Assembly (NCBI GenBank): GCA_041742075.1 | Contig: JBGSJJ010000016.1 | Location: forward strand, 83,128 to 147,127 | DNA from: Minisyncoccia bacterium | Lineage (GTDB): Bacteria; Patescibacteriota; Minisyncoccia; Phycocordibacterales; UBA918 | DNA length: 64,000 nucleotides | Direction of reading: 5' to 3' | Shown here: one piece after another, positions 4,360 to 19,230 of the stretch | Numbering within the stretch: the first letter of the stretch is position 1 | Layout: every line of letters begins with the position of its first letter | Translations under genes and position numbers: made by a program | The notes under the pieces: generated by a model | Databases searched by the model: none | Seen by the model: the letters and a program-made list of their open reading frames with translations, nothing else | What the model was told of the DNA's origin: nothing

Positions 4360-4401
4360 ATTTATCTGATTATACCACTTTTGAGTGAATCTAGGGAGTT
4401 T

Positions 4402-4812: not shown

Positions 4813-4832
4813 TTATAATTAGTTTCATTTTA

Positions 4833-6090: not shown

Positions 6091-6281
6091 GTGTCAATAT
6101 TTTATCACTTTTACATTTCTTCCGCTATTTCGGCAGCTTCGTCCTCGTCAAGACCTTCCTGATCCATAATCTCCTTTATTTTTTCAGCATCCTCAATATC
6201 CACTCCCTGATTTTCAGCTATTTCTTCAATCTCTTTTACTTCTTCTGGATCTTTGTCATCAAACATAAGTTTATTGATTAC

Positions 6282-7787
6282 CTATAATATATTTAACAGT
6301 CGCTTAAAAATCGCATACATTGCGTAGGTATCTAGATTACAGTAAATCTTGAGCGCATTGATGAGTTCAGTTGCTTCTTCCTTTGAATACTTGCCGTCTA
6401 CTATTTTCTTCCATGCCTGAGATGCCGTACCACCTTCTTTGATCAAAAGTTCTTTATATGAAAGCTCCGGCACAAGAACAGGAAGAACCTTTTTAATTGA
6501 GCTACTACCTTTAAAATCCTTATGCACATAATATTGCTTTGAAAATATTTCCATGAGATCGAAAACTCTCGCATTTATTTCTTCAAAGAAAGCCTTATAC
6601 TCTGGCAGTCTTATTCCCATTTCCGTATTTCTTGATTTTTCAAAAGGCTTATACCACACGATCACACTTCCTTTAGGACCGATTTGGGATTGAAGAGACT
6701 TTGCTAATGCAGGGCAAGGATCACCGGATTCGGTGTAGATAAAATCAAAACTTTGAGGCGCCGCACCAGGTGTTTGAACAATTTGAAGTGAATATTGAAA
6801 TGGTATTTGATCATACGATGAGTAACCATCAAACAACGGGATTGCTGATGGAAATGTTTCGTAATCCAGAAAATAAAGCGGGTATTCCAGTTTATCGAAC
6901 TCATCCGCAATCATGTCTTTTTTAATGAGTACCCGGTCTCTTATGTGTGTATCGATCTGATTTTGCTGTGATTCACTGAAAACAATCCTTCCATCTGCCT
7001 CATGAATGTGAAATACGTTACCATCGATAAGTTCCATCAGTTTCTTTTTGCTGCTACCTATTCGGTTTAAGTCGTGTACCGAATATTCTGGAATATGAGG
7101 GTTATTATGTTTAAATGTAGAGCAATGGCTACTTCTTCCTTTGTAAACGCAACAGCAAGGACCATTGGGCTCATTCTCAGAAGACAGATATTTTAAAGCG
7201 ATATTCATTTCATCCCACACTACAGAGATCATGTCTGCTATTACCTCACTCACTTCGTCTATTGAAAAAAGCTTTATGATATCTAGTTCCCCATTCCTCA
7301 CATACTCCTTATTGAGATGCAGAAGGTTGATACCTGTCACTCTTACCCCACACTTGTGTAGTAAAGCTACTTGAAATGCGAGGTCATAAAGATGAACTTT
7401 CTCACCCACTTCATTCGTAGCCTTGATCTCATATATTTGATAACCGTCATTTTCTGGATCGTATTTGAGTACATCGACCGCTGCGAGAAATCCATCTTTA
7501 ACGAAGATGGGCTGGAAAATAGTTTGACCCTTCTTGGCGACAAGATCGAGAGTATCAAGTCGAGCTTTCTCATCTCTGCCTTCTATAAGCACACCGCTTG
7601 GAAAGAGCTCACGGGCCACAAGCTCAACCTCGTTACCAGTTTCAATGATATGCTTTTCGAATTCGGAAAGTTCAGTTGCATAGTAAATATCCGGCTTGTG
7701 AATTTTCATCCAAGCATTCTTTGGGCATTCTCTATAAAGTATGTAATCAGTTTTTGATAGCGTCATATGGTTAGGCCGAAGGGTCAC
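6282..7787 (-). CDS. DUF2779-like predicted PD-(D/E)xK nuclease with central Cys cluster (CCCVYKGRSSHC)
   Basis: N-terminal SKTDYILYRECPKNAWMK signature; D...EIK catalytic motif (AVDVL...YEIKATN); overlaps upstream ATPase gene by 17 nt. Confidence 0.5.
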   Translation of the reverse strand: MTLRPNHMTLSKTDYILYRECPKNAWMKIHKPDIYYATELSEFEKHIIETGNEVELVARELFPSGVLIEGRDEKARLDTLDLVAKKGQTIFQPIFVKDGFLAAVDVLKYDPENDGYQIYEIKATNEVGEKVHLYDLAFQVALLHKCGVRVTGINLLHLNKEYVRNGELDIIKLFSIDEVSEVIADMISVVWDEMNIALKYLSSENEPNGPCCCVYKGRSSHCSTFKHNNPHIPEYSVHDLNRIGSSKKKLMELIDGNVFHIHEADGRIVFSESQQNQIDTHIRDRVLIKKDMIADEFDKLEYPLYFLDYETFPSAIPLFDGYSSYDQIPFQYSLQIVQTPGAAPQSFDFIYTESGDPCPALAKSLQSQIGPKGSVIVWYKPFEKSRNTEMGIRLPEYKAFFEEINARVFDLMEIFSKQYYVHKDFKGSSSIKKVLPVLVPELSYKELLIKEGGTASQAWKKIVDGKYSKEEATELINALKIYCNLDTYAMYAIFKRLLNIL

Positions 7788-10047
7788 ATAGAATCTTTAA
7801 TTTTTTGTAATGATCGTCATCGGACATATGTATGAATTCTATGACGTTTTTTGCCACATCTTTTGCTTCAAGTGTTGCAGCGGTGATCGGCCGAGTGAAG
7901 TCTAGCCCGTGTGAGTATTCGTGCAGAAACTTTACGATGAAGTCTGCTACTCCTTTGTTTTTGAGGTTGGGATCAGTGACATATTTATCGTGTACCATTT
8001 GAGCAAAAGCTCGATCTGTACCACACGACCACTTAAAACCTGCGAAATATTCAAGTGCTTTTCTTGCGACATTTGGTATAAGTGGAGCATCTATTCCTGT
8101 ACCATTTTTATTGAAGTTATAGAGTTGAAAAAATAGGAATTGATACTCAGTTTTGTATTTGCGGATAATATCGGGCAGGGGCTCAATTTTTGCTTCATGT
8201 GTCGCCCCTGTGCGATTGCAGGTCATAAGATAAAGTTCGGCATCGTCGGTGTCGTTCATCCAATCTCGGACCAGATTAAAAAAGGCGAAGTTGTGTGTAA
8301 GTACTATCAACTGCTCGGCTTTTATAAGCTGTCTTTTTATGAGGCCGAAAGTGCGGAACAAAAATATTTCATCTTGACTGTCTACAGGATCATCTACCAC
8401 AATTATTCCGCTCTCCTTTTTAAAGCCGTCTTCTTCAAGTTTTGCAAGAAAATAAATCAATGCTATGACACTTTTCTCACCCTCGCTTAGGTGCTTTGCA
8501 TTCTTACCACGGCGCTTCACAATGTAACCCACCTCTGGAGCATTTGGATCTGTAAGCTCTAGATATATTTGTGATTCACCGAAGAAATCTTTGAGAACGT
8601 CATTTATTGCATCGATTGCGATAGAAGCATTTAGGATACCGCCACGTTTCTTTTTTATTTCACCATTTAGTGTGTATATTTCTGTTTTTAATGGACCAAG
8701 CTTTGCATCAAGATCGGCGAGGTCTTTTTTCTTTTTGAAATACTCTTTTGACTTCAAAACTGACGCAATGGTATGAATCTCAATTGCTTTTGCTGCTTCA
8801 TCTATTTTATCCATCCTCTCATCATGTTTATTGACTATAGCATTAAGCTTTTCAATAAGTGCACCGAACTCTTGAATAACATTCTCAGGATATGGAATTT
8901 TTGAAATAGTTTTTTTTCGATCATGTAGATTCTCACGCTTTTCATTGAGAGCAACAATCAGTGCTGTAATTGAACCACGTAGCTCTCTGCCTTTATCTTC
9001 AACGCTTGATTTTGTTGCAAGATATTCGTTTGCCAAATCAGGAAATAGTCGACTTGGTTCAATAAATACTGCCTCAGCTTTGTTTTCTGCTACGTCTATT
9101 TTTGTAATAATGTCATCAATTCCCTTTTTTGCTTTTTCGAGCTCCTCAGTAAAAAATTTGCCAAGGTTTTCTAGGAATCCTTTATCGAGAGTTTTTTTAC
9201 AAAATTGACACGATTCGAGATCTCGGTTTTTATGTATATGATATCCTTGTTCAGTCCAATCTCTGAGCTCTTTGTCAGAGTCGAGCCCTTCGATTATTTC
9301 GATATCTACAAATGTATCTAAGAGATTATTCGCATTTTCAAATAATACAGAAAAATCATTAACCCCTTTTAATTCAGAACCAATTTTTTGTTTTTGATTT
9401 TTAATTATGTCCCTCTTGCTGTCTATATCTTCTACCTTTTCTATAATCAATGAGTCTAGATTCTCAGGAGTGATCTTACCGTCAGTAACAAAAGGTTCTA
9501 TTTTTGTACGGTTGTAGCTTCGTCCATAGTATGTTCCACTACCGAGGGGGGTATTAGTAAATTGCTTGATTACTTCACGGGCAGCTTCAGTAAAAATATT
9601 TTCTATAGAGCTAATTTTTCCTCTATCTACTTCTAGCCGACCATGCTCTTCTCTTGCCGTGGTAACTTTCGCCTCTAGAGAAGTTATTTCAGCTTGTGCA
9701 TCTATATTATCTTTTCCAACAATGAGAATTTTCTTTGCTTTTGACTCGTGGAACTCAAGATTCTCTCGGATAAAATCCTCATTGAAAACTTTAATACTTA
9801 TATTACTAGTGAGCAGGTCTGATTCCTTGATAACGCCTGTGTTAGACTGAACCTGAAATTGCATTGAAGAAAACTCCGGCATATCAATTTTCTTCTTCTC
9901 AACAAAACTTAACACGCGCGACATGGTTGTTTTACCACATCCATTCCACCCATAAATTAAGTTGTATTTTTTTAGATCACTTCCACCCCATTGAAAGGTA
10001 TCGAAAGCATCAATATTTGTTATGTCTTTTAATTTGGTAATAGGCAT
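7771..10047 (-). CDS. AAA_13-family ABC/Rad50-like ATPase with coiled-coil and CxxC hook (RloC/PrrC-like architecture)
   Basis: Walker A GWNGCGKTT; CQFC in coiled-coil; signature LSEGEKS; Walker B IIVVDDPVDSQD; H-loop LTHN; ~200-aa C-terminal extra domain; 758 aa. Confidence 0.7.
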   Translation of the reverse strand: MPITKLKDITNIDAFDTFQWGGSDLKKYNLIYGWNGCGKTTMSRVLSFVEKKKIDMPEFSSMQFQVQSNTGVIKESDLLTSNISIKVFNEDFIRENLEFHESKAKKILIVGKDNIDAQAEITSLEAKVTTAREEHGRLEVDRGKISSIENIFTEAAREVIKQFTNTPLGSGTYYGRSYNRTKIEPFVTDGKITPENLDSLIIEKVEDIDSKRDIIKNQKQKIGSELKGVNDFSVLFENANNLLDTFVDIEIIEGLDSDKELRDWTEQGYHIHKNRDLESCQFCKKTLDKGFLENLGKFFTEELEKAKKGIDDIITKIDVAENKAEAVFIEPSRLFPDLANEYLATKSSVEDKGRELRGSITALIVALNEKRENLHDRKKTISKIPYPENVIQEFGALIEKLNAIVNKHDERMDKIDEAAKAIEIHTIASVLKSKEYFKKKKDLADLDAKLGPLKTEIYTLNGEIKKKRGGILNASIAIDAINDVLKDFFGESQIYLELTDPNAPEVGYIVKRRGKNAKHLSEGEKSVIALIYFLAKLEEDGFKKESGIIVVDDPVDSQDEIFLFRTFGLIKRQLIKAEQLIVLTHNFAFFNLVRDWMNDTDDAELYLMTCNRTGATHEAKIEPLPDIIRKYKTEYQFLFFQLYNFNKNGTGIDAPLIPNVARKALEYFAGFKWSCGTDRAFAQMVHDKYVTDPNLKNKGVADFIVKFLHEYSHGLDFTRPITAATLEAKDVAKNVIEFIHMSDDDHYKKLKILCDPSA

Positions 10048-10163
10048 GTGTTTTTGGGGTTTTCAAGATAAAAAAATATTACCACAAAATAGTACTTTTA
10101 TAAAGAGCGCTTGGTATGCAAATGACTATGTATTTTGCAAAAAGTAAGCTAAAATAAGGAGAC

Positions 10164-11183
10164 ATGAGATATTACGGTTGCAAAACCAAACTGCTTGATT
10201 ACATTGAGGATGTCGTTACAACTTTACCCGTAAAAAAAGGGGCAATTTTTTTCGATATATTTAGTGGGACAACTGCAGTTGGTCAACATTTTAAAAAACT
10301 TGGCTATACAGTTTATTCGAACGATTTTTTAGAGTTCGCATACTCACTAGCTCGAACAAATATTGAAACGGCTAAAATCCCTAAATTTAAAAAGTTAGGA
10401 TTGTCGGATGATATTATTGATCATCTAAATAAACTTAAGGGTAAGGCTGGATTCATTACAAAAAATTACTCACCATTTAACGGAAACAAACGTCAGTATC
10501 TTTCAGTTGAAAATGCTAAAAAGGTTGATGTGATTAGAGAAAATATCGAGAACTGGAAGAATAGTAAATTAATTTCTGAAACGGAATATTATTATCTTAT
10601 TGCAAGTCTCATAAACGCAATCAGTCTTGTTGCAAATGTAACAGGTACCTACGCTGCATTTTTGAAAAGCTGGGACAGACGGGCTTTAAAAAATATCACT
10701 TTAGGACATGGAGAAGTGTTTGATAACAAAAAAGAAAACAGGGCCTTTCGAGCCGATGCAAATGATCTCGTTGGGATGCACAAAGTAGATATTCTATACC
10801 TAGATCCCCCATATAATGCTAGGCAATTTGCATCAAATTATTTTTTTCTAGAATTGGTGGCGGAAGGTTGGTTTAGGAAAATTCCTGAGATATATGGAAA
10901 CGCGGGAATGAGGCCTTATGAGGATCAAAAATCAGATTATTCAATTTCTCGAAAGGCTGCTGACGCGCTTCTAGATTTAGTAACAAAAGCAAAAGCAAAA
11001 TATATTTTATTGAGTTACAACGACGAAGGAATAATACCGATTCCTGTGCTCAAAAAAATTCTTTCAACTCGCGGTGAAGTTAAGGAATACACAAAAGAAC
11101 ACAAACGATACCGCGCAATTAATCAAGATGGGTCGAAAATTATAACTAAGGAGCATTTGTTCCTACTAACTGTAAAAAAATAA
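10164..11183 (+). CDS. Dam/DpnM-like N6-adenine DNA methyltransferase (alpha class, D12 family)
   Basis: N-terminal RYYGCK...FFDIFSGTTAVG (motif I) and LYLDPPYN (motif IV). Confidence 0.75.
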   Translation: MRYYGCKTKLLDYIEDVVTTLPVKKGAIFFDIFSGTTAVGQHFKKLGYTVYSNDFLEFAYSLARTNIETAKIPKFKKLGLSDDIIDHLNKLKGKAGFITKNYSPFNGNKRQYLSVENAKKVDVIRENIENWKNSKLISETEYYYLIASLINAISLVANVTGTYAAFLKSWDRRALKNITLGHGEVFDNKKENRAFRADANDLVGMHKVDILYLDPPYNARQFASNYFFLELVAEGWFRKIPEIYGNAGMRPYEDQKSDYSISRKAADALLDLVTKAKAKYILLSYNDEGIIPIPVLKKILSTRGEVKEYTKEHKRYRAINQDGSKIITKEHLFLLTVKK

Positions 11184-11184
11184 T

Positions 11185-11994
11185 ATGGCTGAAAAAATGA
11201 ACAACTTAAATGGCAAAGAGTGGCTACAAAACTCCTTTAGTATTTGGAGAGACGTTGGTAAAACATCCGAGGAGAGGAAGTTGAAGCACCCTGCAATGTT
11301 TCCACAGCAATTGGTCGAGAAACTCATTAAAATCTACACAAAAGACCCTGGTGAGGTCATTCTCGATCCTTTTCTGGGTATTGGCTCAACATTAAAAGCA
11401 GCTCACAACCTTGGAAAGAAAGGAATCGGCTTTGATTTAAATAAGGACTACTGCGAGATTGCCAAAGGTAGAGTTACAAAACATGAAGCTGATGAAAATT
11501 TTGATAAAAAAGTAAAAAGATTTGAACCCAAGATCTATTGCGAGGATTCAAGAAACATTTTAAAGCACGTCAAACCAAATTCAGTAGACCTAGTGGTTAC
11601 ATCACCGCCATATTGGGATATCTTAACCATGAAGAGAACTGCTGACATGAAAGATGGACGTAAGTATTCCGATTCAGACGATGATATTGGTAATATTCAC
11701 GACTACGAGGCTTTTCTCCAAGATCTAAAAACTGTTTATACTGAGGTCTACAAAACACTAAAACCCAACAAGCGATGTATCTGCGTCGTTATGGATATTC
11801 GTAAAAAGGATAAATTCTATCCATTGCACGAAGATCAAAGTCGCATCATGCGTGAAATAGGATTTGAGCTCGAAGAGTATGTTATATGGGACCGACAAAA
11901 AGAGTACAACAACATGAAAACACTAGGCTATCCATGGGTATTCAGATTCAATAAGGTACATGAATTTATTTGTGTCTATTGGAAAAGAGCTTAG
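11185..11994 (+). CDS. Second DNA methyltransferase (N6/N4, PF01555-like)
   Basis: HPAMFPQQLVEKLIKIYTKDPGEVILDPFLGIGST (AdoMet-binding region) and VVTSPPYW (catalytic motif). Confidence 0.7.
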   Translation: MAEKMNNLNGKEWLQNSFSIWRDVGKTSEERKLKHPAMFPQQLVEKLIKIYTKDPGEVILDPFLGIGSTLKAAHNLGKKGIGFDLNKDYCEIAKGRVTKHEADENFDKKVKRFEPKIYCEDSRNILKHVKPNSVDLVVTSPPYWDILTMKRTADMKDGRKYSDSDDDIGNIHDYEAFLQDLKTVYTEVYKTLKPNKRCICVVMDIRKKDKFYPLHEDQSRIMREIGFELEEYVIWDRQKEYNNMKTLGYPWVFRFNKVHEFICVYWKRA

Positions 11995-12542
11995 TTAACT
12001 ATAAAATCTTTTTTTGAGAAAGGAATGACTGAATCTTCGCTGATTTGGTCATTTTTTTCATCCCAACCAACGACAATAATATCTTGTCCTTCCCCATAGC
12101 TAAGGACTCTCTGTCTTATTTTATCCTCAAGTAGAAGAATGTTTACTTCATTGGATACTCCATTTGTAGAAGCGACAAATGCCAAAAGAGCGCCAGTGAG
12201 TTTGGCGTAACAATTCATCTCACCCAATTCTTTAAGACTGAGTGCGGATGTTGATCTGTTGAGTAGTACTAGTTCTAAACGAGAATTTTTCTTATTTTTT
12301 AAAATACCAAGTACATCTGGTTTAAATTCCCATGTAGAATAATTTGCTATTTGTTTGATAGCCTCATTATTCATTTTTGCCAGACTCGTCTCTGGTATTA
12401 AAACAGATACAACTTCATGTGTTTCAGAAAATTTTATATTCAAAAAATTATTTAGCCAATTCTTTAATTTGTTTGTAAAAATATTTTTGTCCATATAATT
12501 AAATATTGATGAAGTTAACTTTTCCATTTTGAAGTGTAGCAA
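11991..12542 (-). CDS. Small protein paralogous to the PD-ExK C-terminal domain of the 547-aa protein, with degenerate catalytic lysine (ELV instead of EAK)
   Basis: KPDVLGIL...RLELVLL...SLKELGEM.YAKL aligns with KPDVVGFL...AFIEAKITPLDLKSLGQLMGYCFV in the neighbour. Confidence 0.4.
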   Translation of the reverse strand: MLHFKMEKLTSSIFNYMDKNIFTNKLKNWLNNFLNIKFSETHEVVSVLIPETSLAKMNNEAIKQIANYSTWEFKPDVLGILKNKKNSRLELVLLNRSTSALSLKELGEMNCYAKLTGALLAFVASTNGVSNEVNILLLEDKIRQRVLSYGEGQDIIVVGWDEKNDQISEDSVIPFSKKDFIVN

Positions 12543-14142
12543 GCTGAATCATTCGACCTTCAGCATATTGTAGTAAATCTGGACGTGCTTTGAGTACTTT
12601 AATAAGGGATAGTGATGGTTCTTTTGTTGAAATGAGAATAGCTTCTATTGGCTGTGCAACGAAGCAATAACCCATAAGCTGACCCAGACTTTTCAAATCA
12701 AGTGGTGTAATCTTTGCTTCAATGAAGGCTAGAGCTTTTTGTTTTTCAAGAAAACCTACAACATCTGGTTTAATTCGATACTTATCACAATAATCAAAAA
12801 CATCAAGCAATTCTCGATTTCTATTTTTCAAAAATAGATTTAGATTTCCGGCTGATGTATCAAAAGCATCTGCTGGTTCACTATATTTTTTTGACAGATA
12901 GTCTGTAAAAAATACAGTCAATGGTTCGTACATTGCCTGCTCAGCCATTTCCTTCTCAGTTTTTCTCTTTGTAGATGGAGCTTTCTCTGGCCTTATTTTA
13001 TTAGTTGCATTTTCCGTTAGCTCATTTCTAATAATATCAAATTCAGCCTGAATCTTAGAAAAATCCTCATCTAGCTCTATATCACCGGTGATAGCAAAAA
13101 GATCAGGATTTTTCGATTTACTTTGCAATCCTTGAAGATATTTGCACCCCATTGCAAGATTGATCTGCCAGAAAGCATCAAAATGTCTTCGAGCTGATTC
13201 TGGAATTCTTAAATCATTTTCTCCCGGATGGTATGCCTTGAGTTTCCCATTGGTAATTTTTGAAGGTGGAAACCAGTCGTCAATATTATCAAATTTAACT
13301 CCTAGATTATGAGCTTTTAATTCATCAAACATTGACTGTTTAGAACTTATACGAAATTTAAAATCCCCATAATATTCTGGAAAGAATTTTATTTGATGTT
13401 CACGACCCCAACTCGTTGGGTTTGTCTCATAAAAGTCATTTAAATTACCATCTCGAATATTTGGATGACCCCAGTCTATCGTATGTATTGGGAGATTAAA
13501 TTGCGAACGCATGAAGTTATCGATTTCTACGGGGAGATGCCAGTTTCTAACTATTTGATAGTAAACTCTCATTCTTCCGTGTCCATTTTTTCCATCACGA
13601 TTTAACCAACCACCCGCATTTGCAAAACCAGAGGTATCAAGTAATCCATTCACAAATTCTATTTTTGCTTCTTTTGTTGCAGTCTCTAATTCTTTCGGAA
13701 TATGAAATCTATCGAAGCTTGTGTCCGGTGAAAAAAATCTTGTTATATCCTTGAATTTGTCTTTGTCATTTTTTAAATCAATAACTAGAATTGTCATGGA
13801 CTTATTTCCTGTAATATCAAATTCAGCATTAATACCAGTCTTTAGAAAAGGTACAATCACATTTTTTAAAGATTCGACTGTAGAAAGTGGTTGATTGTAT
13901 GTCTTTTTGACTGACGAGTCTAGAACGTGACCACATTCTGGATTTTTACATTTTAGTCCGCCATTTTTATTGTCAGTTGCTAACCACCCACATTTTGGAC
14001 AATGAGCAATCCCAGCAATAAATTCATTTGTGTGTGAGAATTCAATTGCGATCGAAAAGCTATCCATGAAGAAATGACCTCGGCCTGTTATGAGACCGAG
14101 TAGGTACGCTTCCTCAGGAATTATAGTGTTATTTTCAGCCAT
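12499..14142 (-). CDS. Candidate restriction endonuclease / nuclease: degenerate LAGLIDADG-like motifs, zinc ribbon, C-terminal PD-ExK domain
   Basis: AYLLGLITGRGHF and EFVNGLLDTSGF (LAGLIDADG-like, acidic residues replaced); CPKCG...CKNPEC; KPDV...EAK; convergent with the two methyltransferase genes. Confidence 0.45.
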   Translation of the reverse strand: MAENNTIIPEEAYLLGLITGRGHFFMDSFSIAIEFSHTNEFIAGIAHCPKCGWLATDNKNGGLKCKNPECGHVLDSSVKKTYNQPLSTVESLKNVIVPFLKTGINAEFDITGNKSMTILVIDLKNDKDKFKDITRFFSPDTSFDRFHIPKELETATKEAKIEFVNGLLDTSGFANAGGWLNRDGKNGHGRMRVYYQIVRNWHLPVEIDNFMRSQFNLPIHTIDWGHPNIRDGNLNDFYETNPTSWGREHQIKFFPEYYGDFKFRISSKQSMFDELKAHNLGVKFDNIDDWFPPSKITNGKLKAYHPGENDLRIPESARRHFDAFWQINLAMGCKYLQGLQSKSKNPDLFAITGDIELDEDFSKIQAEFDIIRNELTENATNKIRPEKAPSTKRKTEKEMAEQAMYEPLTVFFTDYLSKKYSEPADAFDTSAGNLNLFLKNRNRELLDVFDYCDKYRIKPDVVGFLEKQKALAFIEAKITPLDLKSLGQLMGYCFVAQPIEAILISTKEPSLSLIKVLKARPDLLQYAEGRMIQLATLQNGKVNFINI

Positions 14143-14190
14143 AAATTACTCTATAATTCTACACTTTTTTTAGTGTTTTGAACAGAGAAT

Positions 14191-14367
14191 TTATTTACCG
14201 GCAAACGGGACATTTGTTTCCCCTTTATTTGCAAAGTAAAATGAGAATGCCATTGATGCTAGGATCATAAAATCTTTAGGATCAATTCTACCCACAAACA
14301 TCCCAGCAATGGTCGCCACTGCCATCAGAATAAAAACTACTTTTGATGCTGATTTTAATATTTCCAT
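14191..14367 (-). CDS. 58-aa two-TM membrane protein (holin candidate; below ORF-track length cutoff)
   Basis: Manual translation MEILKSASKVVFILMAVATIAGMFVGRIDPKDFMILASMAFSFYFANKGETNVPFAGK; start 3 nt from amidase stop. Confidence 0.4.
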   Translation of the reverse strand: MEILKSASKVVFILMAVATIAGMFVGRIDPKDFMILASMAFSFYFANKGETNVPFAGK

Positions 14368-14369
14368 AG

Positions 14370-14975
14370 CTATAATTGGTTTAATAGATTAATAATTTGT
14401 GCCTTTATCACTCCCCTGTTTGGGACCGACTGAGTGAATAGTTTTTTGATTACTTCATTTCGTACATTTTCTGGTTTTTCTTTATAGTCGGTTATATCTC
14501 CATGGATGATGATATTTTTTGGATCAAGTACGAATGCCGTCTCTGGATTGTTTGAAAATGATTTTATAAGTTCTATAAGTTGGTCATATTGCCATTCGGT
14601 TATGTCATTTTCGTTTGATTCAACAACACCATCCTGATCCACGTCATATCCTGCCGCGAGTTCAATTCCTATAGTGTACTGATTTGGATTGACCCATGAA
14701 CCATCTAGATTCTTGAGCATTACTTTTTTTGCTCTATCGTTTGGGTTACTTATTACTCCTGCATGCCATGCTATGTCAGTAATTTTTACTAGCTGGACTA
14801 TTTCACCAGGCTTTCTACCAATCACAAAATGTGAAGAGGATCTATTTGGCCTATTTGCATTTGAGAGCCAGCTCACTGCGCCGCCATATGAGCCAAGCGT
14901 AAAGTGCAAAACCACAACGGCTTTCTTTGTAGGACCAACTGAGTAATTTGGTGTTTGTTGAAATGATATATTCAT
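14370..14975 (-). CDS. N-acetylmuramoyl-L-alanine amidase (Amidase_2/PGRP fold) endolysin
   Basis: SHFVIGRKPGEIVQLV...DIAWHAG motifs. Confidence 0.75.
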   Translation of the reverse strand: MNISFQQTPNYSVGPTKKAVVVLHFTLGSYGGAVSWLSNANRPNRSSSHFVIGRKPGEIVQLVKITDIAWHAGVISNPNDRAKKVMLKNLDGSWVNPNQYTIGIELAAGYDVDQDGVVESNENDITEWQYDQLIELIKSFSNNPETAFVLDPKNIIIHGDITDYKEKPENVRNEVIKKLFTQSVPNRGVIKAQIINLLNQL

Positions 14976-14978
14976 AAA

Positions 14979-15260
14979 TTATTTTTTAGCTGGTAATCGT
15001 TCCTCAAGGATTGTTTCAATTTTTATCAATCGTTCGCTTGTATCCCGATAGCGTTCGGTATTCGCTTGGTCTAGTCGTTTTACGTTTTCTTCAATTGTAT
15101 GGATGTGGTTATCTCGAATATTATTGAGAGCTTCGATAACCTGAATATCACTCTTTGGTGCTTGGAGCATGTTGAAGATTCCGAATGAAACGCCGACGAT
15201 TCCAATTACCAGAGAGACCTGGTTGTATAAAAATTTCTTGAACGTCTCTTGTTTTTCCAT
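14979..15260 (-). CDS. Single-TM small membrane protein; holin or lysis accessory candidate
   Basis: TM segment LVIGIVGVSFGIFNML then coiled region; immediately upstream of amidase. Confidence 0.35.
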   Translation of the reverse strand: MEKQETFKKFLYNQVSLVIGIVGVSFGIFNMLQAPKSDIQVIEALNNIRDNHIHTIEENVKRLDQANTERYRDTSERLIKIETILEERLPAKK

Positions 15261-15305
15261 ACCTAAAGCATAGATGTCCCTTACGACAAAAAGGGGTGTA
15301 TTACT

Positions 15306-17648
15306 TTATTGAGAGATTAGAGCTCGCACAGCTTCGATTTGTCTTTCAGGGGTAATGTTTCGTACTAGGTTTATTCCCTTTCTTACCGCCTTTGAGAGTA
15401 ATCCTGATGCATTTCCTGTAGCGACATCGGTAAGTGCTCCGGTTGCTTCCTCTGCGGTATTCACCCCTTTTGTGATTTGTTGCTGTAGACTTTGTGACTG
15501 AGTTGTACCGAACAAGTCTTCAAGAAAATTTGCAAATAGGAACTGACTTCTTGCATCAATATTCTTGTTATATCCATACTGCCTTGCGAGATCCTGGATA
15601 TTCTGCACAATCGCTAGAGGACGTGACGAAGCGTTACCGAGAATTCTTCGGCCAACCTCTCCAGCTCTAAGCGATGAATCGATCTTTGTTGCTTCAAAGT
15701 CTTTTCCGAGAGCACGCTGGAAATAATCCATCGCACTGGTAAGCTTTGAATACTCATTTGAAAGCTCCGCATAATCGGTATCGATGTATGCGATATTGTC
15801 TCCCAATCCTCCATACACTTTTTGAAGGATTCGCTTTGCACTTTTATCGAGGTTTCCTTCAAGAGTTCCGAGATCAACTTCAGTTCCGAGTTGCTGTCTG
15901 ATCATGTCCACAGTCTTTACGTTTGATTTTTCTCCGAGATTAGAGATTCTCTGATGAACGCTTTCTATTATCTTCTGGACCTTAGGAACATTTGCATACT
16001 TAGAGTTTGAAAAATCGAGACCGTCGTTAGTTATTTTTATTCCGGCATCATCAAGGTCTTTGTAGAAAATATCCGCAGTATCGGTAATTGTGACGGGATT
16101 GTTGCCAAGCTTAGATCTCAAAACACCAAGATCTTGACCAACTTTTTGACGTGCGCTTTCGACTGTATCAGCCTGTTCAATGAGTATTTTTCCAGCCTGT
16201 TCGATCGGCTGACGTGAGTATGTCTTATCTTTTGATGCCTGCTCCGCAACTTTCATAGCTTTATCAAATATTTTTTTATCTTCAAGAGATGCGTTCTTAA
16301 TAAAGGCAACGTCTTGGTCTGCAATACCTGACTTTAGAGCTTCGGTTGCTTTTGCATCAACAACTTTTTTGCCGTCCGCACCTACAGAATAGTTAATTAC
16401 ATCAGCTGGAATCTTTCTACTTTCATCAATCACGTCATCTGCCTTTGAGACCAATTCGTCAAAGGTTGTTTTATTAGGATCAATGAGTGTTCGATATTTT
16501 TCTCCTGCACCTGGAACATTCATATCCAAATTTGCCGCAATATCATCAATGCGCCCCTTAGCAAGTTCGGGATTAAGAGCACCATCTTTTTGATAAACCT
16601 GATCAATGCTCAAATCGCCATTTTTGATTGCAGCCTTGAAGGAATCTTCATCAGCATGCTTAGCAATTTCGTCGTGAAGCGAATTGATAGTCTCATCGGG
16701 AGTCATTGATGGCTTAAGCATGTTGTTGATTTCCCTTCGCCGATTTAAATATCCACTTGTACCACCAACGACCGCACCGACTGTTCCACCGGCAACACCA
16801 CCGACAACACCGCCAGTGAGAGCGTCTTCTGCAATTTCAGAATTGCTTTTGTTATCCTGCATTGCTCGAGTCGCACCTTGTGCTGTTCCCCATACAGAAC
16901 CTGACACAAGACCTTGCTTAGCACCTTGCCATGCACCTTTGAGGATGGCTTGAGCTTTTGTACCACCACCGATAATGCTTGGGAGCGCACCGGCTGCAGG
17001 TGAGACAGTGCTTCCTATACCAGCTTTGCCGAGAACAGTTGCAACTTTCCCAGATGTTTTTCCTGCGATAAGAAGTTTTCCGCTTTGAGCACCTTGAGCT
17101 GCTTTACCGTATGATCCTGCTGAAAGAATATCTACAGCCACACCAAGACCTTCTCCGAATATTTGCTTCGCTGTTTTATTTACACTCGCATTTGTCTCAT
17201 TGATATCAATTGGCGGTTTGCCTGCATCTTTCATGTGCTGCTGAAGTGCTGCCTCAAGGCGAGACGTGTCTTCGCCTCTTTCCTTTTTCTGCTTGATGGT
17301 TTTCAAAAGATTGTCAGTAATTTCCTGACTCTGTGCCATAAGTTCCTCATTCTCTTTATTTGTCCACGCTGCACTTCCAGGCACAAACGATGGCAACGCA
17401 TCAGCTATACTCTTTCCGAATTTCTTCTCACTCGAAATAATTGCGTTGCCCACAGCTTTTGTTCCACTCCAAATCTTTGCTCCGAGACTTTTTTTCTCAG
17501 GTTCCTGAGTAGCCGGTGCTTGAGTCTCGTTTGCATATTTCTGTTTGAAGTCATTTACGACAAATTGAACATCCGCATCGCTTTCTTTGTTAGCGACCAT
17601 TTGCTGAACGATCTTATCAAGTTGTTGTCTTCTGGATTCTGTAAGCAT
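15306..17648 (-). CDS. Large phage structural protein with Gly-rich hydrophobic segment (tape-measure or ejection/internal virion protein candidate)
   Basis: GGVVGGVAGGTVGAVVGGTSGY segment; coiled-coil-rich; position in late operon. Confidence 0.4.
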   Translation of the reverse strand: MLTESRRQQLDKIVQQMVANKESDADVQFVVNDFKQKYANETQAPATQEPEKKSLGAKIWSGTKAVGNAIISSEKKFGKSIADALPSFVPGSAAWTNKENEELMAQSQEITDNLLKTIKQKKERGEDTSRLEAALQQHMKDAGKPPIDINETNASVNKTAKQIFGEGLGVAVDILSAGSYGKAAQGAQSGKLLIAGKTSGKVATVLGKAGIGSTVSPAAGALPSIIGGGTKAQAILKGAWQGAKQGLVSGSVWGTAQGATRAMQDNKSNSEIAEDALTGGVVGGVAGGTVGAVVGGTSGYLNRRREINNMLKPSMTPDETINSLHDEIAKHADEDSFKAAIKNGDLSIDQVYQKDGALNPELAKGRIDDIAANLDMNVPGAGEKYRTLIDPNKTTFDELVSKADDVIDESRKIPADVINYSVGADGKKVVDAKATEALKSGIADQDVAFIKNASLEDKKIFDKAMKVAEQASKDKTYSRQPIEQAGKILIEQADTVESARQKVGQDLGVLRSKLGNNPVTITDTADIFYKDLDDAGIKITNDGLDFSNSKYANVPKVQKIIESVHQRISNLGEKSNVKTVDMIRQQLGTEVDLGTLEGNLDKSAKRILQKVYGGLGDNIAYIDTDYAELSNEYSKLTSAMDYFQRALGKDFEATKIDSSLRAGEVGRRILGNASSRPLAIVQNIQDLARQYGYNKNIDARSQFLFANFLEDLFGTTQSQSLQQQITKGVNTAEEATGALTDVATGNASGLLSKAVRKGINLVRNITPERQIEAVRALISQ

Positions 17649-17649
17649 T

Positions 17650-19224
17650 TTAGTATTGGTATTTATCTCTTAGTGCACTCTGTTCTGGTGTGGCGGTGGT
17701 ATCGACAAAACCACTGCTATTTTTGGCAGCCTCGTATTTCAACAAGAAAGCGTTGACCTTATCTACTTCAGCTTGAATCTGTTCAGGGCTCAGACGTTGT
17801 GCATCAAGAGATGATGCGGTCGAAGTCATGAGCTCGACGTCACGGTTGGACATCTGTGGACCGAAGAACTTTTTGATATTCGGATCTGTTACTAAAGTGA
17901 GAAGGTTTGATTTGACGGTATCAACATAAGCTTGAAGTTGTCTAAATGAAGAATCGCCGATAAAGGTGTCACCAAGAGTTCTACTGATTGCGCTAGGACC
18001 GGCAGCGCTTTTGAGTTTCTGCACATTTTCGAGTGCACTTTTGAGCGTACCGATTTGGTAAATCGAGTCTTGTGTAGATGTTGAACTAGTGAGTGCTGTG
18101 ATGACAGCATTCTTGAGGTTTGCGGGCACGTTTGCGATTGTGGCTTTTCCTGCATTGATCTGACTTACCCATGAATCAACAACAGGATCGGAAGCTGTGC
18201 CAGATCCACCGGTTGGTGCGTATGTCTTTGCCTTGGAAGCGATGACTGTTGTTTTGCCAGTGACAGGATCGTAAACGTAGCGTGCCTGACCTTCACCAAG
18301 ATCGAATTGATTGATTTCTGATTTTGTTTTTTCAGTATCAACTTTCTTTTTTTCAAGATCAGCTGCCGATTTAGCAGCCTCTTGATCTGCTGCAACTTTT
18401 TGAGCTTTAACATCAGAGAATATTGATATGAGCTGGTCTTTGCTGAAGCCATATTGATCTTGAATCTTCTCAAAGTCTGCATCACTGATTTCTTTCGGAT
18501 CAACTCCAAGAGCGAGCATGTTTTTAAGGAATGAAGTGATTTGATCTTTCTTTCTCTGACCCTGAGTTTCAAGGAATTGGAAATACTTATCAGCACCCTG
18601 CTGAATCGCAACACGCTTAGCTTCAATTTCGGCAGTAGCATCTCTAGTTGCCGCACCAAGAAGAGATGAGATCTTTACATTCGCTTCACTTCGATATGTT
18701 TGCTCCTCTTGATTGTTATAATTTTCTGTTGTCTGAAACTCTGATTCTCCTGTAGCACTTCCAATTCGGCCACCGGCTGCTGCGAGTGCGTACGATTGGC
18801 CTTGGCGATTCTTGCCTGTAGTATTCCTGAAGTTTGCAATTTGATCGCTCACAGCGGCGTTTATGGCGTCAATTTGCCCTTGAATACGTGCTCTTGTAGC
18901 TGATCTTATAGCTTCCTCGTTTACAGTGTCGGTTGCTTGGTTCTTGTAGGTTTTCCCTATTTGTGTCGTTGTAGAATCTTCCACATAGCTTGGGACTGTA
19001 ACTTTTGCTACCTGAGCTATGGTCTGTTTTGTGTTGTTTGTTGTAGGAGCTGGTGTCTGTGCAGGTGCAGGAGTTGAATTTCCTAACGACAAAGAACGCC
19101 CAGCATATATTTTGTTGGGATCTGTAACTGAGGGATTCAAAGTCATGAGCTCTTGCATGCTTTTCCCTGTCTTTGATGCGATTCCACTTAAGGTATCGCC
19201 GTACTGTATCGTGTAGGAAGACAT
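17650..19224 (-). CDS. LysM-domain protein (peptidoglycan-binding virion or ejection protein candidate)
   Basis: N-terminal YTIQYGDTLSGIASKTGKSMQELMTLNP LysM motif. Confidence 0.55.
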   Translation of the reverse strand: MSSYTIQYGDTLSGIASKTGKSMQELMTLNPSVTDPNKIYAGRSLSLGNSTPAPAQTPAPTTNNTKQTIAQVAKVTVPSYVEDSTTTQIGKTYKNQATDTVNEEAIRSATRARIQGQIDAINAAVSDQIANFRNTTGKNRQGQSYALAAAGGRIGSATGESEFQTTENYNNQEEQTYRSEANVKISSLLGAATRDATAEIEAKRVAIQQGADKYFQFLETQGQRKKDQITSFLKNMLALGVDPKEISDADFEKIQDQYGFSKDQLISIFSDVKAQKVAADQEAAKSAADLEKKKVDTEKTKSEINQFDLGEGQARYVYDPVTGKTTVIASKAKTYAPTGGSGTASDPVVDSWVSQINAGKATIANVPANLKNAVITALTSSTSTQDSIYQIGTLKSALENVQKLKSAAGPSAISRTLGDTFIGDSSFRQLQAYVDTVKSNLLTLVTDPNIKKFFGPQMSNRDVELMTSTASSLDAQRLSPEQIQAEVDKVNAFLLKYEAAKNSSGFVDTTATPEQSALRDKYQY

Positions 19225-19230
19225 GTGTTT

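What the first reader, a model, noticed from the sequence alone, without database searches (positions are those of the whole stretch)
10164..14142. Restriction-modification-like module with two methyltransferases opposed to an unusual 547-aa Zn-ribbon / LAGLIDADG-like / PD-ExK protein and a degenerate 183-aa paralog
The Dam/DpnM-like methyltransferase (DPPY) and a second PF01555-type methyltransferase are arranged like DpnII/LlaDCHI two-methyltransferase systems. The convergent partner is not a typical ~280-aa GATC endonuclease. It is a 547-aa protein carrying a CxxC...CxxxxC ribbon and two LAGLIDADG-like boxes whose acidic residues are replaced (LLGLITGRG, GLLDTSGF), so it is probably non-catalytic and DNA-binding. 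It also has a C-terminal D...EAK PD-ExK domain. The adjacent 183-aa ORF, which overlaps it by 44 nt, is a recognisable paralog of that PD-ExK domain with the catalytic Lys lost (ELV). It may be a regulatory or structural subunit.
Basis: partly seen in the sequence, partly recalled or inferred. Interest (0 to 1): 0.65.

Follow-up and report, generated by a model that had tools for sequence, protein, structure and literature searches.

The report
Restriction system using dead homing-endonuclease fold
This phage-borne restriction-modification cassette has a DNA-cutting enzyme that appears to recognise DNA with a catalytically dead homing-endonuclease (LAGLIDADG) fold tethered to an ordinary nuclease domain, and it is partnered by a small degenerate copy of that nuclease; this design has been engineered in the laboratory, but I found no description of it in nature.

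Summary
M1 (10164-11183) is a D12-class DPPY adenine methyltransferase. M2 (11185-11994) is a PF01555 methyltransferase with SPPY, probably N4-cytosine. The 547-aa protein gives a confident model (pLDDT 89.9). Residues 1-345 form a single-chain LAGLIDADG homing-endonuclease fold with both catalytic acids replaced (R21, S171) and a Cys4 zinc ribbon inserted. A variable linker follows, then a RecB/NucS-like PD-(D/E)XK domain with invariant E401, D460, E475, K477 and Q488xxxY492. The small ORF is really 167 aa, starting at the ATG at 12494, so there is no 44-nt overlap. It is a true paralog of that nuclease domain (hhalign 98%, E 3e-13), with ExK replaced by N-R-S. Large, small and M2 genes co-occur in all 28 related loci whose contig continues past the large gene, across bacteria and archaea. 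The second methyltransferase is swapped among three unrelated adenine-methyltransferase classes, which implies an asymmetric target. Distant relatives keep the recognition protein and a canonical nuclease as separate genes. Best reading: a heterodimeric Type IIS-like restriction enzyme of a family absent from Pfam, NCBIfam, PADLOC and PHROGs. It is not a DpnII/GATC system. Whether the small subunit is catalytic remains unresolved.

The parts
10164..11183 (+). M1: D12-class (alpha) N6-adenine DNA methyltransferase, 339 aa, DPPY motif. This is the variable member of the methyltransferase pair.
   Evidence: PF02086 at 2.2e-33. PADLOC MTase_II PDLC03287 at 5.6e-94. Dam model TIGR00571 scores only 16.6 bits against a cut-off of 114.85. 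Replaced by gamma-class N6_Mtase/Eco57I/TaqI_C or MT-A70 enzymes in related loci.
11185..11994 (+). M2: PF01555 DNA methyltransferase, 269 aa, SPPY motif (probably N4-cytosine). Motif order is permuted: FxGxG comes before SPPY. This is the constant member of the pair.
   Evidence: PF01555 at 8.3e-36, matched in two stretches in swapped order. PDB matches: 2zie at 1.2e-29 and cytosine-N4 methyltransferase 8s9n at 4e-19. Present next to the small subunit in all 28 related loci whose contig continues past the large gene.
11991..12494 (-). Small subunit, 167 aa: a paralog of the nuclease domain with degenerate catalytic residues (K3, PD60, N79-R80-S81, E92xxxY96). Its stop codon overlaps the M2 stop codon tail-to-tail.
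   Evidence: Homologs are 161-174 aa and start at MDK. hhalign against the large subunit: 98%, E 3e-13. Motif alignment. NRS and PD codons verified. Start context shown.
12499..14142 (-). Large subunit, 547 aa: recognition module, linker and nuclease domain.
   Evidence: 350 homologs, all about 545 aa and all named 'hypothetical'. AlphaFold2 model pLDDT 89.9.
13108..14142 (-). Recognition module (residues 1-345): single-chain LAGLIDADG homing-endonuclease fold plus a helical extension. Both catalytic acids are replaced.
   Evidence: Foldseek against the PDB: PI-SceI 4.4e-5; I-DmoI probability 1.0 with target-normalised TM 0.5-0.58; also I-OnuI and I-SceI. R21 and S171 sit at the penultimate motif positions and are never acidic in 57 + 148 sequences.
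14080..14118 (-). LAGLIDADG helix 1 (residues 9-21, PEEAYLLGLITGR); R21 replaces the catalytic Asp.
13906..14013 (-). Cys4 zinc ribbon (residues 44-79), inserted between beta2 and alpha2 of the first LAGLIDADG half. Absent from the split-form relatives.
   Evidence: C48, C51, C65 and C70 are invariant. PF14952 zf-tcix at 1.7e-5, below Pfam's cut-off. Sequence verified. Split forms lack the Cys residues.
13630..13674 (-). LAGLIDADG helix 2 (residues 157-171, ...FVNGLLDTS); S171 replaces the catalytic Glu/Asp.
12958..13107 (-). Variable helical linker (residues 346-395).
   Evidence: Lowest conservation in the protein (mean column identity 0.39), with a dip in model confidence.
12502..12957 (-). 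Cleavage domain (residues 396-547): RecB/NucS-like PD-(D/E)XK nuclease with E401, PD460, E475-A-K477 and Q488xxxY492.
   Evidence: These residues are invariant in 57 homologs and in every covering sequence (68-74) among 148 superfamily representatives. Domain model pLDDT 89.4 with alpha-beta-beta-beta-alpha-beta topology. Foldseek hits: NucS 2vld (probability 0.98), PaqCI, LlaBIII, NucC, Hjc, Can2, EcoT38I, OkrAI, MunI. Viral proteins named restriction endonuclease, VRR-NUC or RecB-family nuclease.

Best explanation
This is a Type II restriction-modification cassette with an asymmetric target, carried as an accessory island in a tailed (pro)phage of a Patescibacteria-like host.

Proposed mechanism:

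- Two methyltransferases each protect one strand. M1 makes m6A. M2 has SPPY and most likely makes m4C.
- The endonuclease is a heterodimer built like a Type IIS enzyme.
- In the large subunit, a LAGLIDADG homing-endonuclease fold that has lost both catalytic acids, and gained a zinc ribbon, serves as the sequence-recognition module.
- A roughly 50-residue variable linker tethers this module to a canonical RecB/NucS-like PD-(D/E)XK cleavage domain, which cuts near the bound site.
- The 167-aa small subunit is a duplicated copy of that nuclease. It is co-translated with the large subunit and pairs with the tethered nuclease domain as its obligatory dimer partner.

On the small subunit, I lean (about 55:45) to the view that it is a pseudo-nuclease. 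The complex would then have a single canonical active site, which either nicks or cuts the two strands in turn on the flexible linker. The alternative is that it cuts the second strand through a relocated active site.

Shown: gene content, folds, motif conservation, paralogy, and strict gene linkage across phyla.

Inferred: DNA binding by the LAGLIDADG module, strand-specific methylation, the heterodimer contact, and the cleavage pattern.
For: 1. Methyltransferase identities.

2. Fold of the large subunit:
- LAGLIDADG fold for residues 1-345.
- No acidic residue at either catalytic motif position in 57 homologs or 148 superfamily representatives.
- PD-(D/E)XK fold and an invariant E-D-ExK-QxxxY signature for residues 396-547.

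3. Paralogy of the small subunit.

4. Linkage:
- Large, small and M2 genes are adjacent in all 28 related loci whose contig continues past the large gene. These come from Patescibacteria, Nanoarchaeota, Thermococci, Actinomycetota, Gammaproteobacteria, Firestonebacteria and Gastranaerophilales.
- The start of the small gene lies within -4 to +6 nt of the large gene's stop.

5. Non-orthologous replacement of the second methyltransferase. It is D12 in 12 loci, gamma-class N6_Mtase/TaqI_C in at least 8, and MT-A70 in 1. This is what is expected if two strand-specific methylations of an asymmetric site are required.

6. Distant split-form relatives:
- They encode a roughly 290-aa LAGLIDADG-like protein and a separate roughly 165-aa nuclease with the full D...ExK motif, beside two methyltransferases or a 700-aa fused N6A+C5 methyltransferase.
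- One sits on a 6.5-kb Lactiplantibacillus plantarum plasmid that otherwise carries only replication and toxin-antitoxin genes.
- This shows that the recognition and cleavage modules are separable, and that the pair behaves as the R component of a restriction-modification system.

7. Precedent: class III heterodimeric Type IIS enzymes. In BspD6I/BstNBI the small subunit is a copy of the large subunit's catalytic domain. In BtsI/BsrDI the small subunit has a non-canonical motif (PMC3017599).
Against: - Nothing here is biochemical. Neither the recognition sequence nor the cleavage position is known.
- K-mer depletion over 297 kb of carrier contigs gave no asymmetric candidate site.
- The PDB matches of the nuclease domain are weak (best E 1.6e-3, TM about 0.3-0.4).
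- LAGLIDADG enzymes normally read 14-22 bp, which is far longer than methyltransferase sites, so the module must be used differently here.
- In WhiA, a dead LAGLIDADG domain may have surrendered DNA binding altogether (PMC3384342).
- D169, H226, N228, E248 and H249 of the recognition module are nearly invariant even in split forms that are paired with different methyltransferases. That degree of conservation is not what specificity determinants should show.
- A heterodimer with only one canonical active site is an awkward way to make double-strand breaks.
Confidence: 0.75

Rival explanations
1. A true class III heterodimer, like BspD6I or BtsI. The small subunit is catalytically active through a relocated, non-canonical site made of D60 plus E89/E92 from the following helix, with K88 or R80 as the basic residue. 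It cuts the second strand, but only when docked on the large subunit.
For: - PD60 is invariant in 43 small subunits. Its only known role in this fold is metal binding.
- R80, S86, K88, E89 and Y96 are also invariant.
- The most conserved segments of the small subunit are the active-site-equivalent strand and helix (column identity 0.85 and 0.81, against 0.61 overall).
- Q488 is replaced by an acid, E92, which would point into the pocket.
- A restriction system needs double-strand breaks.
Against: - Three of the four canonical catalytic residues are replaced at once (E401 to K, E475 to N, K477 to S).
- The BtsI motif itself is not present.
- The helix after the ExK strand is the dimer interface in FokI (from my own knowledge). 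If that also holds here, it could explain the conservation without any catalysis.
- Free nucleases of the split form keep the canonical residues, so loss in the small subunit looks like relaxation of the catalytic constraint.
Confidence: 0.35
2. The recognition module keeps a cryptic second catalytic centre, so the large subunit has two different active sites (class II-like). In that case the small subunit is only a regulator.
For: D169, H226, N228, E248 and H249 are nearly invariant across 148 superfamily representatives, including split forms associated with different methyltransferases.
Against: - Both metal-binding acids of the LAGLIDADG site are absent everywhere.
- The secondary structure around GHPN/EHQ is not a beta-beta-alpha-metal motif.
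- Split forms still need a separate canonical nuclease gene.
Confidence: 0.08
3. A DpnII/LlaDCHI-type GATC system, with a Dam-like methyltransferase and a DpnA-like second methyltransferase.
For: - The pairing of a D12-class and a PF01555 methyltransferase matches DpnM/DpnA.
- M2 has a partial match to DpnA structures (8.7e-11).
- GATC is mildly depleted (0.74-0.77).
Against: - M1 scores 16.6 bits against the Dam model's cut-off of 114.85.
- M2 has SPPY and gives stronger matches to N4-cytosine methyltransferases.
- M1 is swapped for TaqI-like or MT-A70 enzymes in relatives.
- The nuclease gives no DpnII-family match.
- GGCC, CATG and other palindromes are equally depleted, so the GATC signal is generic.
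Confidence: 0.03
4. Not a restriction enzyme. Instead it is a domesticated or mobile homing-endonuclease derivative, or a NucS-like repair nuclease, that merely sits beside unrelated methyltransferases in a defence island.
For: - The fold matches homing endonucleases and NucS.
- The locus lies in a phage accessory island next to other defence-like genes.
Against: - Linkage to M2 and to a second methyltransferase is invariant in all 28 related loci whose contig continues past the large gene, across bacteria and archaea, while other neighbours change.
- Split forms always sit beside methyltransferases too, including on a minimal plasmid.
- There is no intron or intein context.
Confidence: 0.04

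Closest known systems
R.BspD6I / R.BstNBI (class III heterodimeric Type IIS restriction endonuclease; nickase large subunit plus small subunit)
   Same: - The large subunit has a recognition domain, a linker and a PD-(D/E)XK cleavage domain.
- An adjacent small gene of about 170-190 aa is a paralog of that cleavage domain.
- The target is asymmetric.
- An origin by duplication of the catalytic domain has been proposed (PMC3017599).
   Different: - The recognition domain of BspD6I is FokI-like (winged helices), not LAGLIDADG.
- There is no sequence relation: no PDB sequence match at E <= 10.
- BspD6I, FokI and their relatives are not among the top 50 structural matches.
- The BspD6I small subunit is reported to have a functional catalytic site, whereas here the ExK is replaced by NRS.
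R.BtsI / R.BsrDI (heterodimeric Type IIS)
   Same: - A large subunit carries recognition and a canonical PD-(D/E)XK site.
- A small subunit of about 18-25 kDa carries a non-canonical motif and is inactive on its own.
   Different: - In those enzymes the canonical site is in a different domain arrangement.
- Their small-subunit motif is PD-Xn-E-X12-QR, which is not found here.
- No LAGLIDADG fold has been reported for them.
Engineered I-SceI(inactive)-FokI chimeric Type IIS endonuclease (Lippow et al. 2009, PMC2685105)
   Same: A catalytically dead single-chain LAGLIDADG scaffold is used purely for DNA recognition and is linked to a PD-(D/E)XK cleavage domain that cuts outside the site.
   Different: - The chimera is man-made.
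- It recognises 18 bp.
- It uses FokI homodimerisation.
- It has no methyltransferases and no paralogous small subunit.
WhiA/DUF199 (domesticated LAGLIDADG transcription factor)
   Same: It has a bacterial single-chain LAGLIDADG fold with the metal-binding acids replaced (Arg and Gly in T. maritima WhiA), recruited to a host function and tethered to a second domain (PMC3384342).
   Different: - WhiA is fused to a helix-turn-helix domain and regulates genes.
- Here the partner domain is a nuclease and the context is restriction-modification.
- No sequence match to WhiA was seen.
NucS/EndoMS and RecB-family PD-(D/E)XK nucleases
   Same: - NucS is the best structural match of the cleavage domain (2vld, probability 0.98).
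- The E...D...ExK...QxxxY signature is shared (the motif assignment is from my own knowledge of the RecB family).
   Different: - There is no sequence-level match.
- NucS has its own N-terminal DNA-binding and dimerisation domain and acts in mismatch repair.
- NucS is not linked to methyltransferases.
Type IIS systems with one m6A and one m4C methyltransferase, for example MboII (M1.MboII / M2.MboII). This comparison is from my own knowledge and was not tested here.
   Same: Two separate methyltransferases of different chemistry each modify one strand of an asymmetric site.
   Different: R.MboII is a single polypeptide unrelated to this family. The methylated bases were not determined here.

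Membership tests
Type II restriction-modification system (asymmetric-site, Type IIS/IIT-like) | The endonuclease gene or genes are adjacent to the cognate DNA methyltransferase gene or genes, and this linkage is conserved through horizontal transfer. | tested here: met
   Large, small and M2 genes are adjacent in the window and in all 28 related loci whose contig continues past the large gene, across bacterial and archaeal phyla.
Type II restriction-modification system (asymmetric-site, Type IIS/IIT-like) | Two methyltransferase activities, one per strand of a non-palindromic site. | tested here: inconclusive
   Two methyltransferases of different classes are always present. The second is swapped among D12, gamma-class and MT-A70 enzymes, or fused as N6A+C5 in the split forms. 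Strand specificity and the target site itself cannot be tested with these tools, and k-mer depletion was uninformative.
Type II restriction-modification system (asymmetric-site, Type IIS/IIT-like) | Separate recognition and cleavage domains joined by a linker. | tested here: met
   The model shows residues 1-345, then a poorly conserved linker at 346-395, then the domain at 396-547. The two modules occur as separate genes in distant relatives.
Type II restriction-modification system (asymmetric-site, Type IIS/IIT-like) | Sequence-specific cleavage of unmodified DNA at a fixed position, blocked by the cognate methylation. | not testable with these tools
   This needs biochemistry and methylome data.
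Class III heterodimeric Type IIS REases (BspD6I/BstNBI type) | [quoted passage not shown] | tested here: met
   hhalign probability 98%, E 3e-13; BLASTP E 6e-8.
Class III heterodimeric Type IIS REases (BspD6I/BstNBI type) | The small subunit carries a functional catalytic site. | tested here: inconclusive
   The canonical E...ExK is replaced by K...N-R-S, and Q by E, while PD60, K88, E89 and Y96 are invariant.
Class III heterodimeric Type IIS REases (BspD6I/BstNBI type) | Sequence or structural homology of the recognition domain to the FokI/BspD6I recognition domain. | tested here: not met
   The recognition module matches LAGLIDADG homing endonucleases instead. There is no PDB sequence match.
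LAGLIDADG homing endonucleases | [quoted passage not shown] | tested here: met
   Foldseek: PI-SceI, I-DmoI, I-OnuI and I-SceI at probability 0.9-1.0, with target-normalised TM up to 0.58. Helices 9-21 and 157-171 carry the motifs.
LAGLIDADG homing endonucleases | An acidic metal-binding residue at the penultimate position of each motif (D20/E117 in I-DmoI; PMC3384342). | tested here: not met
   Position 21 is R/K(/H). Position 171 is A/S/T/C/I/V/N/G. Neither is ever D or E in 57 + 148 sequences.
LAGLIDADG homing endonucleases | A match to curated sequence models (Pfam LAGLIDADG_1/2/3, Hom_end). | tested here: not met
   Only PF05204 Hom_end at E 0.09, 13.3 bits against a cut-off of 21.1.
LAGLIDADG homing endonucleases | Encoded within an intron or intein, or as a free-standing homing gene. 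| tested here: not met
   The gene stands free in a methyltransferase-linked cassette in every locus.
PD-(D/E)XK nuclease superfamily (RecB/NucS-like) | An alpha-beta-beta-beta-alpha-beta core with Asp at the start of strand 2 and (D/E)xK in strand 3. | tested here: met
   For the large subunit's C-terminal domain: topology; D460, E475 and K477 invariant; matches are dominated by restriction-endonuclease-fold proteins in the PDB and BFVD. For the small subunit, only the Asp is kept.
PD-(D/E)XK nuclease superfamily (RecB/NucS-like) | A match to a curated sequence family. | tested here: not met
   No Pfam, NCBIfam, PADLOC or PHROG family matches either the C-terminal domain or the small subunit.
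DpnII/LlaDCHI GATC systems | A Dam-family GATC methyltransferase and a DpnII-family endonuclease. | tested here: not met
   TIGR00571 scores 16.6 bits against a cut-off of 114.85. The nuclease has no DpnII-family match. M2 has SPPY, not DPPY.

The most novel reading that the evidence does not exclude
This would be a natural restriction-enzyme superfamily in which a dead homing-endonuclease (LAGLIDADG) saddle has been re-tuned to read a short asymmetric site and hands cleavage to a separable RecB-like nuclease. In the fused branch, the nuclease's dimer partner has decayed into a pseudo-nuclease. The enzyme would then be either a natural site-specific nickase used for restriction, or a single-active-site enzyme that cuts both strands in turn. 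This would be the first link between LAGLIDADG homing endonucleases and restriction enzymes, and a new modular scaffold for Type IIS or nicking reagents.
Probability: 0.3. Interest if true: 0.8.

Novelty: new variant of a known kind. Interest (0 to 1): 0.62.

Why it matters
Restriction endonucleases have been assigned to the PD-(D/E)XK, HNH, GIY-YIG, PLD and half-pipe folds. In the papers I could search, LAGLIDADG is the one major homing-endonuclease fold with no restriction-enzyme relative. PMC3384342 names WhiA/DUF199 as the host protein carrying this fold.

If this family works as proposed:

- It shows that nature built the 'dead meganuclease + tethered nuclease' design that engineers later made by hand (PMC2685105).
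- It documents an evolutionary series: a split recognition and nuclease pair, then a fusion, then a decayed paralog.
- It offers a compact new source of Type IIS or nicking enzymes.

The family is rare (467 cluster representatives among 1.84 billion proteins) but spread across bacteria, archaea, phages and plasmids. A cultured carrier of the split form exists (Lactiplantibacillus plantarum P9, plasmid p9), so the proposal can be tested directly.

Tried and rejected
1. Curated family scans (Pfam, NCBIfam, PADLOC, PHROGs) of the large subunit, its halves, the small subunit and the split-form proteins. None gave a significant family apart from a sub-threshold zinc-finger match.

2. Sequence and profile searches of the PDB with the large protein, with alignment A1 and with alignment A2. 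Only chance-level matches were returned.

3. K-mer depletion (k = 4-6, Markov expectation) on the window and on 23 carrier contigs (297 kb), to guess the recognition site.
- Only generic palindromes (GATC 0.74, GGCC 0.66) and the Shine-Dalgarno-like CCTCC were depleted.
- No asymmetric candidate emerged.

4. Promoter and terminator scans of 9900-14500. Counts were no higher than in shuffled sequence, and there is no terminator between the convergent units.

6. The 990-1300-aa relatives (P0264-P0268) gave no Pfam domain for their N-terminal 800 residues.

7. The DpnII/GATC idea was rejected.

8. The neighbouring AAA_13/PDC-S06 and DUF2779 genes were considered as part of the system. They are adjacent as a pair only in the closest relatives (L001, which carries a different nuclease in place of DUF2779, and L006), so they are treated as a separate neighbour.

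Full report
**Observation**

The region holds four ORFs exactly as described.

- M1 (10164-11183, +) matches the D12-class adenine methyltransferase family PF02086 (2.2e-33) and carries DPPY.
- M2 (11185-11994, +) matches PF01555 (8.3e-36) and carries SPPY.
- On the opposite strand lie a 547-aa ORF (12499-14142) and a smaller ORF.

In an alignment of 57 homologs sharing 42-88% identity:

- the four cysteines C48, C51, C65 and C70 are invariant;
- D460, E475 and K477 are invariant;
- the two LAGLIDADG-like boxes are conserved, with R/K at position 21 and A/S/T at position 171.

Two details need correction.

1. The 183-aa ORF is an extension to an upstream TTG. All 87 homologs are 161-174 aa and begin MDK/MEK. 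The gene therefore starts at the ATG at 12494, four bases after the large gene's TAA, and there is no 44-nt overlap.
2. The residues that align with E-A-K are N79-R80-S81, not 'ELV'.

**What the large protein is**

No curated library recognises it. Pfam gives only a sub-threshold zinc-finger match, and NCBIfam, PADLOC and PHROGs give nothing. PDB sequence searches return noise.

An AlphaFold2 model built from the 57-sequence alignment is confident (mean pLDDT 89.9, pTM 0.80). Foldseek against the PDB returns only single-chain LAGLIDADG homing endonucleases for the N-terminal part. These are PI-SceI (4.4e-5), the TliVMA intein endonuclease, I-DmoI (probability 1.0, target-normalised TM 0.5-0.58), I-OnuI and I-SceI.

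The two motif helices are residues 9-21 and 157-171. In homing endonucleases the penultimate residue of each motif is the metal-binding acid, D20/E117 in I-DmoI (PMC3384342). Here those positions are R21 and S171. They are never acidic in the 57 homologs or in 148 representatives of the wider superfamily. A profile alignment to the I-DmoI sequence places AYLLGLITGRG on AYLLGLIIGDG.

The Cys4 ribbon (residues 44-79) is inserted between beta2 and alpha2 of the first half.

**The C-terminal domain**

Residues 396-547 have the alpha-beta-beta-beta-alpha-beta order of PD-(D/E)XK nucleases. D460 opens strand 2, E475-x-K477 lies in strand 3, E401 is in the first helix, and Q488xxxY492 is in the helix that follows. 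I recognise this as the RecB/NucS-type signature from my own knowledge. All six residues are invariant in the 57 homologs and in all 68-74 covering sequences among the 148 representatives.

A separate model of residues 390-547 (pLDDT 89.4) gives weak but coherent matches.

- PDB: NucS 2vld (E 1.6e-3, probability 0.98), then PaqCI, the LlaBIII nuclease domain, NucC, Hjc, Can2, EcoT38I, OkrAI and MunI.
- Viral proteins (BFVD): annotated restriction endonuclease, VRR-NUC, MmcB-like or RecB-family nuclease.

The stretch at 346-395 between the two modules is the least conserved part of the protein (column identity 0.39, against 0.56-0.73 elsewhere).

**The small protein**

It is a genuine paralog of the cleavage domain (BLASTP E 6e-8; hhalign 98%, E 3e-13). 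A joint alignment shows the following changes relative to the large subunit.

| Large subunit | Small subunit |
|---|---|
| E401 | K3 |
| D460 | D60 (kept) |
| E475 | N79 |
| K477 | S81 |
| Q488 | E92 |
| Y492 | Y96 (kept) |

The protein is under strong constraint (mean column identity 0.61). Its two most conserved stretches are the active-site-equivalent strand and helix (0.85 and 0.81), and PD60, R80, S86, K88, E89 and Y96 are invariant. This fits either a relocated active site or a conserved dimer interface.

**Context elsewhere**

Contexts of three homologs and 29 loci from species-representative genomes were scanned with profiles of each component.

- In all 28 loci whose contig continues past the large gene, the order is large, small, then convergent M2.
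- The start of the small gene lies within -4 to +6 nt of the large gene's stop.
- The small and M2 stop codons usually overlap tail-to-tail, as they do in the window (11991-11994).
- Carriers include Patescibacteria, Nanoarchaeota, Thermococci, Actinomycetota, Gammaproteobacteria, Firestonebacteria and Gastranaerophilales. This is the patchy spread typical of mobile restriction-modification systems.

M2 is always the same family (E 1e-65 to 1e-190). The second methyltransferase is a D12 enzyme in 12 loci, a 506-581-aa gamma-class N6_Mtase/Eco57I/TaqI_C enzyme in at least eight, and MT-A70 in one. Replacing one methyltransferase by unrelated adenine methyltransferases while keeping the other is what would be expected if each modifies one strand of an asymmetric site.

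M2's SPPY, and its matches to cytosine-N4 methyltransferase structures (8s9n, 4e-19) as well as to 2zie (1.2e-29), suggest m4C. M1's DPPY suggests m6A. M1 is not a Dam orthologue (16.6 bits against a cut-off of 114.85).

**A wider superfamily**

A profile search of 1.84 billion cluster representatives found 467 proteins. Among the best 148 there are:

- 20 fused proteins of about 540 aa;
- 41 recognition-only proteins of about 300 aa;
- 48 nucleases of about 165 aa;
- 4 proteins of 990-1300 aa that carry the module at the C-terminus.

In Planctomycetota and Anaerolineae contigs (L030-L032, L034), the recognition protein lacks the zinc ribbon. It is followed by a separate nuclease with the full E...D...E-C/A-K...QxxxY signature, co-directional with M1- and M2-like genes, and there is no extra paralog.

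The same split pair lies beside a 700-aa fused N6A(NPPF)+C5 methyltransferase in two records. One is a 6.5-kb Lactiplantibacillus plantarum plasmid that otherwise carries only replication and toxin-antitoxin genes. The other is a Lachnospiraceae phage.

The correlation is strict. Split forms have one canonical free nuclease. Fused forms have one canonical tethered domain plus one degenerate free copy. Free nucleases and small subunits share a C-terminal tail (..I/L-P..) that the fused domain lacks. This suggests that the small subunit descends from the free nuclease, and that the fused domain is the duplicated copy.

**Mechanism proposed**

Shown:
- gene content, folds and motif conservation;
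- paralogy of the small subunit;
- strict gene linkage;
- separability of the recognition and cleavage modules.

Inferred:
- The dead LAGLIDADG saddle binds a short asymmetric sequence. It is the only candidate DNA-reading module in the split forms.
- M1 and M2 each protect one strand.
- The tethered nuclease cuts nearby on unmethylated DNA.
- The small subunit pairs with the nuclease domain in the way the two cleavage domains pair in FokI or BspD6I.

The closest working analogues are the class III heterodimeric Type IIS enzymes. In BspD6I/BstNBI the small subunit is a copy of the catalytic domain. In BtsI/BsrDI the small subunit uses a non-canonical motif and is inactive alone (PMC3017599). 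The engineered chimera of inactive I-SceI and FokI is also close (PMC2685105).

I lean slightly towards a pseudo-nuclease partner, because three of the four catalytic residues are lost. That would leave one canonical active site. The enzyme would then nick, or would cut the two strands in turn; BfiI, a Type IIS enzyme of a different fold, is reported to cut two strands with one active site (cited).

**Membership**

It is not a member of the BspD6I/FokI family: the recognition fold is different and there is no sequence or top-ranked structural match. It is not a functional LAGLIDADG endonuclease, because the catalytic acids were tested and are absent. It is not a DpnII-type system.

**Unexplained**

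D169, H226, N228, E248 and H249 of the recognition module are almost invariant across the whole superfamily, whatever the partner methyltransferases. That is too conserved for specificity determinants. They may be structural, may contact the nuclease, or (least likely) may form a cryptic catalytic centre. The recognition sequence remains unknown, because k-mer depletion showed only generic signals.

**Setting**

The window is a tailed phage or prophage. It encodes a large terminase, a portal protein, a major head protein, a ParB-methyltransferase fusion and an amidase lysin. The cassette lies just beyond the lysin in a low-GC island (0.33-0.40, against 0.44-0.47 elsewhere), next to an AAA_13/PDC-S06 ATPase and a DUF2779 nuclease-like gene. 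A Candidatus Campbellbacteria chromosome has the same arrangement.

**Verdict**

This is a well-supported, uncharacterised restriction-modification family. Its overall logic is known (a heterodimeric Type IIS-like enzyme with two strand-specific methyltransferases). Its recognition module is new: a domesticated homing-endonuclease fold. It also carries an unusual degenerate partner subunit. I rate it a new variant of a known kind, of moderately high interest.

Noticed in passing
window 6282-10047 (- strand): A 758-aa AAA_13 ATPase (PF13166 at 2e-110; PADLOC candidate system PDC-S06 at 2.9e-140; weaker PrrC and AbiLi matches) overlaps by 17 nt a 501-aa DUF2779 protein with weak Cas4-like matches. 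This looks like a separate candidate defence pair adjacent to the restriction-modification cassette. The ATPase is also adjacent in L001 and L006. DUF2779 homologs recur a few kb from the cassette in L018 and L023.
   Followed up: partly
window 14370-34000: The window is a tailed phage or prophage. It encodes an amidase_2 lysin (14370-14975), a major head protein (24775-25977), a portal protein (28223-30238), a large terminase (30293-31972; phrog_38 at 2e-41) and a ParB-DNA methyltransferase fusion (32449-33831; phrog_498 at 5e-129). The restriction-modification cassette sits in a low-GC island (about 4000-14200, GC 0.33-0.40 against 0.44-0.47 elsewhere) just past the lysin. No tRNA genes were found in the window.
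   Followed up: partly
L035 4429-5806 (L. plantarum plasmid p9, NZ_CP060181); L036 2751-4110 (Lachnospiraceae phage PV036410); L030-L032, L034: This is the split form of the same enzyme. A roughly 290-310-aa LAGLIDADG-like protein without the zinc ribbon is followed by a separate roughly 165-aa nuclease with the canonical D...ExK motif. They lie beside a 700-aa fused N6A+C5 methyltransferase, or beside M1- and M2-like genes. All are annotated 'hypothetical'. The L. plantarum host is cultured.
   Followed up: partly
P0264-P0268; L037 275-3728: Proteins of 990-1300 aa carry the dead LAGLIDADG module at their C-terminus. About 800 N-terminal residues match no Pfam family. In L037 the next ORF begins like an M2-type methyltransferase (NRLNDLTNKDW...). 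This may be a third architecture of the superfamily.
   Followed up: partly
window 11185-11994: M2 is circularly permuted relative to the PF01555 model. The SAM-binding FxGxG (residues about 61-69) precedes the catalytic SPPY (about 140-143), and Pfam matches it in two stretches in swapped order. Some PADLOC MTase_II models match it end to end, so a family with this permutation exists.
   Followed up: no
window 11991-11994, and the same junction in most related loci: The convergent M2 and small-subunit genes end with overlapping stop codons, and there is no terminator-like hairpin between them. The tail-to-tail overlap is conserved in many loci. It could couple expression of the two units through convergent transcription.
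   Followed up: no
window 13390-13480 (residues about 221-252 of the large subunit): The motifs TIDWGHPNIRD and REHQxKFFPEY are nearly invariant (H226, N228, E248, H249) across the whole superfamily, including split forms paired with different methyltransferases. Their role is unexplained.
   Followed up: partly
L019 8103-8720: In a Thermococci contig, an extra 205-aa ORF with no Pfam match is inserted between the small subunit and M2.
   Followed up: no
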